Shown piece after piece: positions 14,826 to 16,031 of a stretch of 64,000 nt of DNA. The notes under the pieces were generated by a model. That model saw nothing but the letters and a program-made list of their open reading frames with translations, ran no database searches and was not told where the DNA came from. Location of the stretch: positions 4,548-68,547 of the forward strand of contig LNEJ01000065.1 in assembly GCA_001464965.1 (NCBI GenBank). Reading direction: 5' to 3'. The position numbers and the translations under genes were made by a program. The stretch comes from Gammaproteobacteria bacterium Ga0074134 (GTDB taxonomy: Bacteria > Pseudomonadota > Gammaproteobacteria > Ga0077554 > Ga007554). Each line of letters begins with the position of its first letter. The stretch's first letter is position 1.

Positions 14826-16031
14826 TTGGCGGATTTTTGCATGACGAATTTTTTGTGGCGGATGGTGCTGGTGTCGATGCTTGCCGTTGTTCCGGCAAGC
14901 ATATGGGCCGCGCCCTCCGCACCTGCGCTATACCAGAAATACTGCTCGGCCTGTCATGGCGAAAAAGGCAACGGCCAGAGCCGGGCGGGGAGCGCACTGA
15001 ATCCACCGCCGCGCGACTTCACCGCGCCCGCCGTGAGCCAGGCGCTGACGCGCGAGCGCATGATCGCCTCGGTAACGCACGGCCGCCCCGGTACCGCCAT
15101 GGTGGGCTGGGGTAACCGCCTGTCACCGCAACAGATCGAAGGCATCGTGGATCACATCCGCGCCACCTTCATGCAGCCCCAGCCTGCCGCCGGCGCGCCG
15201 GCATCACCTGCAACGGCATCTTCCGTGCCATCCCCGCACGCCCATACCGCCACCGCCTCGCGTGGCGGGCCGGGATCCAACTCGCGGCGGGTGATCCCGC
15301 CCAACGCCAGCCTCGGCGAGCGCATCTACATCAACAACTGCGCGGTGTGCCATGGCGACAAGGGCGCGGGGGCAATGTGGACGCAGGCCACCCTCAACCC
15401 GTCGCCGCGCAACTTCACCGCGGAACTGGCGCGGCGGGAGCTGACGCGGGAGCGCATGATCAACTCCGTGACCTACGGACGCCCCGACACGGCCATGATG
15501 TCATTCAAATCGCGCCTGTCGGAACCTGAAATTGCCGCAGTCGTGGATCATATCCGCGCCACCTTCATGAGCGGTGTTGCGGCCACCAGCAATGACGCCG
15601 CCGCCGGTGCCGCAGACACCGGGCAAGAACGGACGGCCCCGCCGCCGCCCGCTACGGTAGCGGATGCCGACATGTCGCAACCCTTCCCAGGCGGCCTGAA
15701 GGGTGATCCGGCCAAGGGGCTGGCATTCTACATGTCCAATTGCTTCACCTGTCACGGCAAGGCGGGCGATGGCGAGGGGCCGCGCTCCACTTTCATCCGC
15801 CCCAAACCACGCAACTTCCTGCACCCCGATGCGCGCCGTACCCTCAACCGCCCGGCACTGCTCAAGGCCATTCATAACGGCAAGACCGGCACGGTCATGC
15901 CCGCCTGGGGCAAGGTGTTGAACGACCAGGAAATCGCTAATGTCGCCGAGTTCGTTTTCCAGGAATTTATCCAGCGAGGCCACGCCAGCTCCGCGCCGGA
16001 CGAACAGAAAAAAAAAGTCCCCGGCAGTTAA
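14826..16031 (+). CDS. Multiheme cytochrome c, N-terminal part (three repeated class I cytochrome c domains).
   Basis: Signal peptide. CSACH, CAVCH and CFTCH, each followed by a P.PRDF / TRERMI / GRPGTAM / VDHIRATFM-type block. Ends at a stop just after an A9 tract. Confidence 0.75.
   Translation: MADFCMTNFLWRMVLVSMLAVVPASIWAAPSAPALYQKYCSACHGEKGNGQSRAGSALNPPPRDFTAPAVSQALTRERMIASVTHGRPGTAMVGWGNRLSPQQIEGIVDHIRATFMQPQPAAGAPASPATASSVPSPHAHTATASRGGPGSNSRRVIPPNASLGERIYINNCAVCHGDKGAGAMWTQATLNPSPRNFTAELARRELTRERMINSVTYGRPDTAMMSFKSRLSEPEIAAVVDHIRATFMSGVAATSNDAAAGAADTGQERTAPPPPATVADADMSQPFPGGLKGDPAKGLAFYMSNCFTCHGKAGDGEGPRSTFIRPKPRNFLHPDARRTLNRPALLKAIHNGKTGTVMPAWGKVLNDQEIANVAEFVFQEFIQRGHASSAPDEQKKKVPGS

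What the first reader, a model, noticed from the sequence alone, without database searches (positions are those of the whole stretch)
16008..16016. A9 homopolymer tract splits a multiheme cytochrome c into two ORFs; an A10 would restore one ~660-aa protein
The 401-aa ORF stops 4 codons after an A9 run. With one extra A, the reading frame continues into ...SPRQLSDATPAPGYGAARTKPRSAHELGRDIYNYRCYFCHGYSGDAKTVAATYLSPPPRDFTAHPIDRQKMIKAV... This is a fourth copy of the same cytochrome domain repeated three times upstream, and it runs straight into the annotated 249-aa ORF. So this is either a homopolymer sequencing error or a genuine slipped-strand ON/OFF or truncation switch for a periplasmic multiheme cytochrome.
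Basis: seen in the sequence. Interest (0 to 1): 0.6.

Follow-up and report, generated by a model that had tools for sequence, protein, structure and literature searches.

The report
Conserved A9 slippage site in cytochrome
The A9 tract that splits this six-heme periplasmic cytochrome c is neither a sequencing error nor an ON/OFF switch: more than 40 bacterial lineages keep it, so it is most likely a programmed slippage site that makes a three-heme and a six-heme protein from one gene.

Summary
A9 lies at 16008-16016. The 0 frame stops four codons later. The -1 frame is open from 15941 to 16975 with no start codon before the fourth heme motif. One extra A gives a 711-aa (not ~660-aa) six-heme protein.

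It is not a sequencing error or DNA phase variation. Ten contigs of this species from independent assemblies carry A9. An out-of-frame Lys-codon A-run (AAA AAA AAA in nearly all; A9, or A10 when a neighbouring base is A) occurs at this junction in 41 other loci, at 49-85% protein identity, although the flanking DNA has diverged. No in-frame allele appeared among close relatives.

The selected reading frame switches at the run. Downstream of it, only one frame stays open (~300-380 codons). The other two close within 1-29 codons.

Six of eight distant single-ORF homologs carry the same A9 in frame, with stops in both other frames right after it, as in Thermus dnaX. Betaproteobacterial relatives instead have two genes, the second with its own signal peptide.

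Best reading: programmed recoding yields a triheme and a hexaheme isoform. RNA polymerase slippage is the likelier mechanism; -1 ribosomal frameshifting is not excluded. I found no published description. No RNA or protein data were available.

The parts
14841..16031 (+). 0-frame ORF giving the short isoform N3: 396 aa, three class I cytochrome c domains, ending KKK-VPGS-stop
   Evidence: Identical to the called protein P0001. Pfam PF13442 and PF00034 score far above their cut-offs.
14841..14909 (+). Sec-type signal peptide MTNFLWRMVLVSMLAVVPASIWA, the only export signal in the whole locus
   Evidence: Read from the sequence: a hydrophobic core followed by IWA|AP. No signal-peptide predictor was run.
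14943..14957 (+). Heme-binding motif 1, CSACH
15339..15353 (+). Heme-binding motif 2, CAVCH
15741..15755 (+). Heme-binding motif 3, CFTCH
15938..15940 (+). TAA stop in the -1 frame; this is the 5' limit of the window in which the frame change must happen
16008..16016 (+). A9 slippery tract (AAA AAA AAA = Lys390-392), the proposed RNA polymerase slippage site. It is also an in-phase A_AAA_AAA heptamer for -1 ribosomal frameshifting.
   Evidence: An A-run of at least nine A at this junction occurs in 42 of 43 out-of-frame loci. It lies in a predicted disordered linker, residues 383-411.
16029..16031 (+). 0-frame stop TAA; this is the 3' limit of the shift window and ends the short isoform
16016..16975 (+). 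-1-frame continuation C3: 319 aa, heme domains 4-6. It can only be read after a +1-nt slip or a -1 frameshift, which gives the 711-aa hexaheme isoform.
   Evidence: The substitution phase shows selection on the -1 frame from the run onward, including 16017-16225, which has no start codon.
16121..16135 (+). Heme-binding motif 4, CYFCH. It lies upstream of the first possible start codon of the annotated 249-aa ORF.
16226..16228 (+). ATG used by ORF callers for the '249-aa ORF'. It is an internal Met of domain 4 (..DRQKMIKAV..) and is not a plausible real start.
   Evidence: A product starting here would lack a signal peptide and heme site 4.
16508..16522 (+). Heme-binding motif 5, CVTCH
16736..16750 (+). 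Heme-binding motif 6, CAFCH
13679..14425 (-). Divergently transcribed pentaheme cytochrome c (248 aa, 5 CxxCH); a conserved neighbour
   Evidence: A homolog lies next to 23 of 25 A-run and fused genome loci.
12585..13703 (-). NHL-repeat beta-propeller protein; a conserved neighbour
   Evidence: A homolog is adjacent in 72 of 80 genome loci.

Best explanation
The locus is one gene for a periplasmic hexaheme protein made of class I cytochrome c domains. Its reading frame is deliberately broken at an A9 tract in the disordered linker between heme domains 3 and 4.

Faithful expression gives a 396-aa triheme protein (N3) that ends four codons after the tract. A fraction of expression events slip on the tract. 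The most likely route is RNA polymerase adding one A (A9 to A10 in the mRNA). A -1 ribosomal shift on A_AAA_AAA may contribute, or may be the route instead. Translation then continues into the -1 frame and gives a 711-aa hexaheme protein (N3-C3).

The C3 half has no start codon or signal peptide, so it can reach the periplasm and receive heme only as part of this fusion. The tract would therefore set a fixed ratio of short to long isoform.

Shown here: the anatomy, deep conservation of the run and of the frame break, and selection on the -1 frame.

Inferred: that slippage actually occurs, which step it occurs at, how efficient it is, and that both isoforms are needed.

The confidence of 0.6 is for this statement with RNA polymerase slippage as the main route. 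That some form of programmed recoding operates at this site I put at about 0.85.
For: 1. The tract is reproducible. A9 is identical in 10 contigs of this species from NCBI, JGI, ENA and Logan assemblies.

2. The tract is conserved. There are 43 out-of-frame loci: the window, 21 other species-level genomes, 20 metagenome loci and a Ca. Tenderia MAG.
- 42 carry at least nine A at the domain 3|4 junction.
- The flanking nucleotides are not conserved.
- Lys codons in this window's long ORFs are only 45% AAA.

3. The ORF architecture is uniform.
- In all 43 loci exactly one frame after the run stays open, for 299-382 codons. (In L144 the contig ends before its stop.)
- The other two frames close in 1-29 codons.
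- 42 loci need +1 nt or a -1 shift.
- In several loci a -1-frame TAA abuts the run, which confines the shift to 16-25 nt.

4. No A-run locus has a start codon with a signal peptide ahead of the CYFCH motif.

5. The selected frame switches at the run (window against L007).
- Upstream, substitutions peak at 0-frame position 3 (80 against 32 and 13).
- In 16017-16225, before any ATG, they peak at the -1-frame wobble (14 against 7 and 6).
- The same holds in 16226-16972 (46 against 10 and 12).
- Four other relatives show the same pattern.

6. No in-frame allele was found among close relatives. 72 of the 120 best protein clusters are trihemes ending KKK plus a short tail, and all six-heme hits are 53% identical or less.

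7. Six of eight single-ORF homologs (L035, L089-L092, L174) encode the linker KKK as an in-frame A9, with stops 0-6 codons away in both other frames. That occurs at only 0.3-11% of in-frame positions of the same genes. A stop in the +1 frame matters only if the mRNA gains or loses bases, which favours RNA polymerase slippage.

8. No conserved or unusually stable RNA structure flanks the run (z between -0.65 and +0.35), and there is no Rfam match. The homopolymer is the only conserved element.

9. There is published precedent. A9 in Thermus dnaX and A11 in Citrobacter tssM1 each give two length variants by transcriptional slippage (PMC5009743, PMC4256274, PMC3711429).
Against: No RNA or protein data were available, so neither slippage nor the two isoforms were observed.

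A9 also contains an in-phase A_AAA_AAA heptamer, so a ribosomal -1 frameshift would give the same protein.

Two observations show that a purely ribosomal route is used, or at least usable, in this family:
- L142 has only A7+G, the classic A_AAA_AAG heptamer.
- The clade L175-L177 has no A-run but a conserved in-phase G_GGA_AAG heptamer.

L061 (A10) needs the opposite correction, which is either an assembly error or a different configuration.

The loci are phylogenetically related, so the counts overstate the number of independent events.
Confidence: 0.6

Rival explanations
1. The outcome is the same (triheme plus hexaheme isoforms), but the frame change is made only by the ribosome. This would be programmed -1 frameshifting on the in-phase A_AAA_AAA heptamer, with no change to the mRNA.
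For: An in-phase slippery heptamer is present in every A-run locus. L142 carries the classic A_AAA_AAG heptamer with only seven A. The sister clade L175-L177 has no homopolymer but a conserved CC[G GGA AAG], and selection switches from the 0 frame to the -1 frame there. So -1 frameshifting is evidently used at this junction in the family. E. coli dnaX uses A_AAA_AAG (PMC3711429).
Against: Seven A would be enough for frameshifting, yet 42 of 43 loci keep at least nine. That length matches what the literature gives for polymerase slippage: An with n>7, or homopolymers of 8 or more. No Shine-Dalgarno-like or hairpin stimulator is conserved, and flanking folds have z-scores near 0. In the single-ORF homologs the +1 frame also has an immediate stop, which a -1 ribosomal shift would never reach.
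Confidence: 0.25
2. An old frameshift mutation is merely tolerated. Background slippage on the A-run rescues enough full-length protein, and the short product has no role of its own. This would be correction rather than a programmed two-isoform system.
For: Slippage on poly-A tracts is described as translational 'correction' of problem indels in the review (PMC5009743 abstract). No experiment here shows that N3 is needed.
Against: The arrangement persists on several deep branches of the family tree. An in-frame revertant, one indel away, was never seen among close relatives. Single-ORF homologs keep the A9 plus stops in both other frames, which only makes sense if the truncated product is wanted. 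In betaproteobacteria N3 exists as a stand-alone gene.
Confidence: 0.08
3. DNA-level slipped-strand phase variation. The tract changes length during replication and switches the long protein ON (A10) and OFF (A9) within populations.
For: Poly-A tracts are also slippery for DNA polymerase (PMC3711429).
Against: All 10 contigs of this species carry A9. All 43 out-of-frame loci are in the 'OFF' configuration, and no ON allele was found among relatives of 56% identity or more in the searched collections. The gene encodes a periplasmic electron carrier of environmental bacteria, not a host-exposed surface structure.
Confidence: 0.04
4. Sequencing or assembly error: the true sequence is A10 and the gene is a plain 711-aa ORF. 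Alternatively, the two ORFs are independent genes or a decaying pseudogene.
For: Homopolymers are prone to error in some sequencing platforms. ORF callers annotate two genes.
Against: The same A9 comes out of different projects and assemblers. It is conserved across dozens of species, and single-ORF homologs carry A9 in frame, so there is no systematic undercall. ORF2 has no start codon or signal peptide before heme site 4. All three of its heme motifs are intact and under purifying selection, so it is neither an independent gene nor a pseudogene.
Confidence: 0.02

Closest known systems
Thermus thermophilus dnaX (tau/gamma by transcriptional slippage on A9), and the Chlorobi-type two-ORF dnaX genes with A7-A10
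   Same: A run of nine A inside a coding region gives a long and a short product of one gene, with nearby stops in the other frames. Some homologs have the long form in frame and others are split into two ORFs. Related species reach the same result by -1 frameshifting on A_AAA_AAG (PMC5009743 and PMC3711429). All of these variants are found here.
   Different: The protein is unrelated: a periplasmic c-type cytochrome rather than a clamp-loader subunit. In this window the default product is the short one. The long product is also the only way to export the C-terminal half. No experimental evidence exists for this locus.
Citrobacter rodentium tssM1 (A11) and Yersinia tssM; Shigella spa13 and other type III secretion genes
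   Same: A poly-A tract just before a premature stop. Transcriptional slippage restores the frame in a fraction of transcripts. Two length variants result, and for tssM1 both variants and their ratio are required (PMC4256274; PMC5009743).
   Different: Those cases are confined to a few species of pathogens and concern secretion machines. This one is spread over dozens of environmental lineages and concerns an electron carrier.
Mg-chelatase-like two-ORF genes with poly-A (GeneTack cluster, Antonov et al. 2013)
   Same: Annotated as two adjacent genes with a conserved poly-A at the junction. A -1 frame change is needed, and fused single-ORF homologs exist in other taxa. Frameshifting was confirmed in reporters (PMC3711429).
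   Different: A different protein family. The paper's text and the two supplementary files held do not mention any cytochrome.
Multi-domain class I c-type cytochromes (cytochrome c4, CcoP/FixP C-terminal domains, c6, c-552)
   Same: Each domain matches PF13442 and PF00034. The best PDB and NCBIfam similarities are to CcoP, c6 and Kuenenia c-552-type proteins.
   Different: No curated family reaches its cut-off. The six-domain or 3+3 architecture and the conserved neighbourhood with an NHL propeller and a pentaheme cytochrome are not a named system in the libraries searched.

Membership tests
Class I c-type cytochrome domains (Pfam Cytochrome_CBB3 PF13442 / Cytochrom_C PF00034) | Profile match above the curated cut-off | tested here: met
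   PF13442 scores 237.7 bits (cut-off 27) over 5 stretches. PF00034 scores 169.2 bits (cut-off 21.3).
Class I c-type cytochrome domains (Pfam Cytochrome_CBB3 PF13442 / Cytochrom_C PF00034) | A CxxCH heme-attachment motif in each domain | tested here: met
   Six motifs: three in the 0 frame and three in the -1 frame. All are invariant in the 14-sequence alignment.
Class I c-type cytochrome domains (Pfam Cytochrome_CBB3 PF13442 / Cytochrom_C PF00034) | Export to the periplasm (signal peptide), needed for heme attachment | tested here: met
   An N-terminal signal-like peptide is present on ORF1 only. None precedes domain 4. This was read from the sequence; no predictor was run.
Programmed transcriptional slippage (realignment) sites | A homopolymer of about 8-9 or more A or T in the coding strand | tested here: met
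   A9 at 16008-16016. 42 of 43 out-of-frame homologous loci have at least nine A. The length criterion comes from PMC3711429.
Programmed transcriptional slippage (realignment) sites | The run and the frame break are conserved across orthologs while the flanks diverge | tested here: met
Programmed transcriptional slippage (realignment) sites | The downstream ORF has no initiation signal of its own and is under selection in the new frame | tested here: met
Programmed transcriptional slippage (realignment) sites | The mRNA population is heterogeneous in run length | not testable with these tools
   No read-level RNA data were available.
Programmed transcriptional slippage (realignment) sites | Two protein products are detected | not testable with these tools
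   No proteomic data were available.
Programmed -1 ribosomal frameshift cassettes (dnaX / IS type) | An X_XXY_YYZ heptamer in phase with the 0 frame | tested here: met
   A_AAA_AAA lies within the run. L142 has A_AAA_AAG and L175-L177 have G_GGA_AAG.
Programmed -1 ribosomal frameshift cassettes (dnaX / IS type) | Stimulatory elements: an upstream Shine-Dalgarno-like sequence and/or a downstream hairpin or pseudoknot | tested here: not met
   The flanks are not conserved. Folds of upstream and downstream flanks in 5 loci have z-scores between -0.65 and +0.35. There is no Rfam frameshift element. Some proven cases have no known stimulator (PMC4066793), so this does not exclude frameshifting.
Phase-variable contingency loci (slipped-strand mispairing) | Repeat length is polymorphic among strains, with both ON and OFF alleles present | tested here: not met
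   All 10 contigs of this species carry A9. No in-frame allele was found among close relatives. Read-level heterogeneity was not testable.

The most novel reading that the evidence does not exclude
A family of periplasmic multi-domain cytochromes c uses programmed recoding at the domain 3|4 linker to make a triheme and a hexaheme isoform in a fixed ratio. The family is widespread in environmental Gammaproteobacteria, including Ca. Tenderia.

Evolution appears to have reached the same result in several interchangeable ways:
- A9 out of frame.
- A9 in frame with stops in both other frames.
- The A_AAA_AAG and G_GGA_AAG frameshift heptamers.
- In betaproteobacteria, two separate genes.

This would be the first recoded respiratory or electron-transfer cytochrome, and a dnaX-like natural experiment on how the stoichiometry of two isoforms is encoded.
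Probability: 0.6. Interest if true: 0.75.

Novelty: new member of a known kind. Interest (0 to 1): 0.66.

Why it matters
Programmed transcriptional slippage or frameshifting in cellular (non-mobile, non-viral) bacterial genes is known for only a handful of cases: dnaX, type III and type VI secretion components, and a Mg-chelatase-like gene.

A deeply conserved case in a periplasmic electron carrier would add a new functional class. It would mean that the ratio of a three-heme to a six-heme carrier is hard-wired into a nine-base tract.

There is also a practical consequence. Annotation pipelines currently split these loci into a triheme gene plus a truncated '249-314 aa cytochrome' that lacks its first heme site and its signal peptide. 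Heme counts and electron-transfer models built from such annotations are therefore wrong for these organisms.

The family offers all the alternative solutions side by side (A9 in either polarity, two different frameshift heptamers, two genes). That makes the evolution of recoding sites directly comparable within one protein family.

Tried and rejected
1. Sequencing error was rejected, because the tract is reproduced in independent assemblies and conserved across species.

2. Independent translation of ORF2 was rejected. No ATG, GTG or TTG precedes heme site 4, there is no signal peptide, and selection on the -1 frame begins at the run.

3. I looked for frameshift stimulators. Folds of 50 nt upstream and 60 nt downstream in five loci were no more stable than shuffled sequences. 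An Rfam scan of 15700-16400 gave only a sub-threshold nadA match, which I take as chance.

4. A consensus fold of the G_GGA_AAG clade used three sequences with one badly anchored. It was uninformative and I did not pursue it.

5. The literature gave no description of recoding in a c-type cytochrome. I checked the Atkins 2016 review, Antonov 2013 with its held supplements, Sharma 2014 and five keyword searches. The library lacks most subscription-journal papers, and I could not query the GeneTack or Recode databases.

6. PDB and NCBIfam searches gave only domain-level similarity, so no function could be transferred.

7. The NJ tree uses a midpoint root and has no support values. I use it only to say that A-run loci sit on several deep branches, not to infer the direction of evolution.

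8. The link to the three highly expressed triheme cytochromes of Ca. Tenderia electrophaga (PMC5371394) could not be verified. Only a Ca. Tenderia sp. MAG locus (L173) was shown to carry the A9 arrangement.
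Full report
**Observation.** The window has AAAAAAAAA at 16008-16016.
- The upstream ORF most plausibly starts at ATG 14841. That gives the 396-aa product that gene callers also predicted (P0001).
- It has a signal-like N-terminus (MTNFLWRMVLVSMLAVVPASIWA|AP) and three CxxCH motifs.
- It reads ...DEQ-KKK-VPGS and stops at 16029-16031.
- The -1 frame is open from 15941 to 16975. It encodes a fourth cytochrome c domain (..GRDIYNYRCYFCHGYSGDAKTV..PPPRDFT..) and two more heme sites.
- It has no ATG, GTG or TTG until ATG 16226, which lies after the CYFCH motif.
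- Pfam assigns repeated Cytochrome_CBB3 and Cytochrom_C domains across both halves.
- An A9 by itself is not beyond chance in this window: there are 2 against 0.49 expected, and 11 of 100 shuffles reach 2.

**Not an error and not a polymorphism.**
- The exact 396-aa product is encoded on 10 contigs from NCBI, JGI, ENA and Logan assemblies. All six loci retrieved carry A9.
- A relative with 85% protein identity (L007, L033) has the same A9 followed by an early stop, although the flanks carry substitutions.
- A search of the 5.8-billion-protein collection with the fused protein found no full-length homolog above 53% identity.
- In that search, 72 of the 120 best clusters are ~400-aa trihemes that end in KKK plus a tail of 1-18 residues.

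**Three architectures of the same locus.** The scans gave 80 species-representative genome loci and 80 metagenome loci. Together with loci fetched through individual proteins, they fall into classes.

(A) Two genes. These are mainly betaproteobacteria such as Noviherbaspirillum, Gallionella and Sulfuritalea. The first gene ends in a Lys-rich tail. The second starts with its own ATG and a signal peptide, often with a lipobox (LAAC, LGGC, LSGC).

(B) One six-heme ORF. These are distant homologs of 40-53% identity.

(C) Out of frame. There are 43 such loci including the window, all labelled Gammaproteobacteria, Chromatiales or Chromatiaceae where named, and including a Ca. Tenderia sp. MAG (L173).
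- 42 of them have at least nine A at the junction, in nearly all cases read AAA AAA AAA for KKK. The run is A9, or A10 where a neighbouring base is also A. The exception is L142.
- Exactly one frame after the run stays open, for 299-382 codons. In L144 the contig ends before its stop.
- The other two frames close within 1-29 codons.
- 42 need +1 nt or a -1 shift.
- None has a start codon with a signal peptide before CYFCH.
- In several, a -1-frame TAA abuts the run (GAT AAA AAA AAA), which limits the shift window to 16-25 nt.
- Nothing but the run is conserved at the nucleotide level around the site.
- Lys codons in this window's long ORFs are 45% AAA. The gene itself is 64.6% G+C.

**The downstream part is translated in the -1 frame from the run onward.** I counted substitutions between the window and five relatives by codon phase (codon-level counts).
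- Upstream of the run they peak at 0-frame position 3 (80 against 32 and 13 for L007).
- In 16017-16225, which precedes any start codon, they peak at the -1-frame wobble (14 against 7 and 6 for L007; 34 against 13 and 9 for L048).
- The same holds in 16226-16972 (46 against 10 and 12 for L007).
- This excludes a pseudogene and excludes independent initiation at ATG 16226.
- A c-type cytochrome domain without a signal peptide could not be matured, because heme attachment takes place in the periplasm. That point rests on established knowledge of cytochrome c maturation.

**The run is kept even where the gene is in one piece.**
- Six of the eight single-ORF homologs examined (L035, L089, L090, L091, L092, L174) encode the linker KKK as an in-frame AAA AAA AAA. 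L036 and L038 do not.
- Three of the six genes are 65-70% G+C.
- In all six, both other frames hit a stop 0-6 codons after the run. The +1 frame usually stops at once (..A9-CTAG, -CTGA, -TTAG, -ATAG).
- Both frames closing that fast is found at only 0.3-11% of in-frame positions of the same genes.
- This is the Thermus dnaX design: the long form is the default and slippage gives the short form (PMC5009743; PMC3711429).
- So the family keeps a slippery A9 in either polarity. That argues that both isoforms are wanted and that the tract is the device that makes them.

**Which step slips?** Three points favour RNA polymerase:
- The run is at least nine A in 42 of 43 loci, although seven would suffice for a heptamer.
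- No stimulatory structure or Shine-Dalgarno-like element is conserved, and flanking folds have z-scores near 0.
- The single-ORF forms have stops in the +1 frame, which only matter if transcripts lose one A or gain two.

Three points favour the ribosome:
- A9 contains an in-phase A_AAA_AAA heptamer.
- L142 has GAA AAA AAG TCC TGA, the classic A_AAA_AAG.
- A sister clade (L175-L177, corresponding to at least 15 protein clusters with tails ..SPLTAE*) has no A-run. It has a conserved in-phase CC[G GGA AAG], and the substitution phase switches from the 0 frame to the -1 frame there: 0, 4 and 10 substitutions by phase over 105 nt.

As with dnaX and IS elements, the two mechanisms seem interchangeable over evolutionary time.
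- That some form of programmed recoding operates: about 0.85.
- RNA polymerase slippage as the main route in this lineage: about 0.6.
- A purely ribosomal route: about 0.25.

**What the protein is.**
- Only domain-level similarity was found: CcoP C-terminal domain, cytochrome c6, Kuenenia c-552-type proteins. No curated NCBIfam family passes its cut-off.
- An AlphaFold model built from the 14-sequence alignment has mean pLDDT 71. It shows confident cytochrome c domains separated by low-confidence linkers at 115-149, 247-271, 383-411 and 563-609.
- The KKK slip site (residues 390-392) sits inside the third linker, a place that tolerates extra or missing lysines.
- The locus is flanked by a divergent pentaheme cytochrome and an NHL beta-propeller.
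- The propeller is adjacent in 72 of 80 genome loci, and the pentaheme in 23 of 25 A-run and fused genome loci.
- The physiological role is unknown.
- Inference: N3 and C3 work together, since they are separate partners in betaproteobacteria. In this lineage C3 exists only tethered to N3, with free N3 in excess.

**Comparison with what is known, and novelty.** The closest analogs are dnaX (Thermus A9; two-ORF forms in Chlorobi; A_AAA_AAG in E. coli), Citrobacter and Yersinia tssM, Shigella type III secretion genes, and the poly-A Mg-chelatase-like genes.
- Neither the comprehensive 2016 review, nor the GeneTack paper with its held supplements, nor five keyword searches mention a recoded c-type cytochrome.
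- The library is incomplete and I could not query the GeneTack or Recode databases, so prior listing cannot be excluded.
- I classify this as a new member of a known kind.

**Limits.**
- Nothing here measures RNA or protein.
- Counts of loci are not phylogenetically independent.
- The NJ tree is unrooted in effect and has no support values.
- L061 (A10, needing the opposite correction) remains unexplained.

Noticed in passing
L175:2883-2997, L176:2613-2727, L177 (junction near 2505-2610): A sister clade of the same cytochrome has no A-run at the junction, yet domain 4 is still in the -1 frame with no start codon. It corresponds to at least 15 protein clusters of ~470-510 aa ending ..SPLTAE*. 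An in-phase heptamer CC[G GGA AAG] is conserved, and between L175 and L176 the substitution phase switches from the 0 frame to the -1 frame there (0, 4 and 10 by phase). This looks like a separate -1 ribosomal frameshift site.
   Followed up: partly
L035:4123-4131, L089:1390-1398, L090:1311-1319, L091:1645-1653, L092:1258-1266, L174:1324-1332: Single-ORF six-heme homologs carry the same AAA AAA AAA in frame, with stop codons 0-6 codons away in both other frames. This is the reverse polarity of the window's arrangement and resembles Thermus dnaX.
   Followed up: yes
L142:831-837: One out-of-frame locus has only A7 followed by G (GAA AAA AAG TCC TGA). This is the classic A_AAA_AAG -1 frameshift heptamer rather than an A9.
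   Followed up: partly
L061:4220-4229: One MAG has A10 (GTC GAA AAA AAA AAG) and needs the opposite correction: loss of one A, gain of two, or a +1 shift. It is either an assembly error or a different configuration.
   Followed up: partly
window 32892-32900: The window's only other A9 lies in frame (..GARKKKITAKDIAIFSRQIATMM..). By eye this is a PilC/GspF-type platform-protein gene; I ran no family search on it. No frame change is needed, and the other frames are not closed quickly.
   Followed up: partly
L009-L016, L039, L043, L044, L046, L049, L063, L066, L067, L075-L077, L081, L083, L086 (start of the second gene): In many two-gene relatives the C-terminal triheme protein starts with a lipoprotein-type signal (..LAAC..LGGC..LSGC). 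In others, such as Sulfuritalea, it has an ordinary signal peptide. So the free C3 partner is probably membrane-anchored in some lineages.
   Followed up: no
window 12585-14425 (- strand): A pentaheme cytochrome c and an NHL-repeat beta-propeller are divergently transcribed next to the gene. The arrangement is conserved in most related loci (propeller in 72 of 80). The set is a conserved module of unknown function that none of the libraries searched names.
   Followed up: partly
L035:4445-4453 and L092:1458-1466: Two AT-richer single-ORF homologs have a second in-frame A9 further inside the gene (..SQKKTRY....EGKKNTA..). This may simply reflect base composition.
   Followed up: no
window 16193-16293 (- strand): A sub-threshold Rfam match to the nadA riboswitch (19.4 bits against a gathering score of 37.5, E = 0.12) lies inside the coding region. 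I take it as chance.
   Followed up: no
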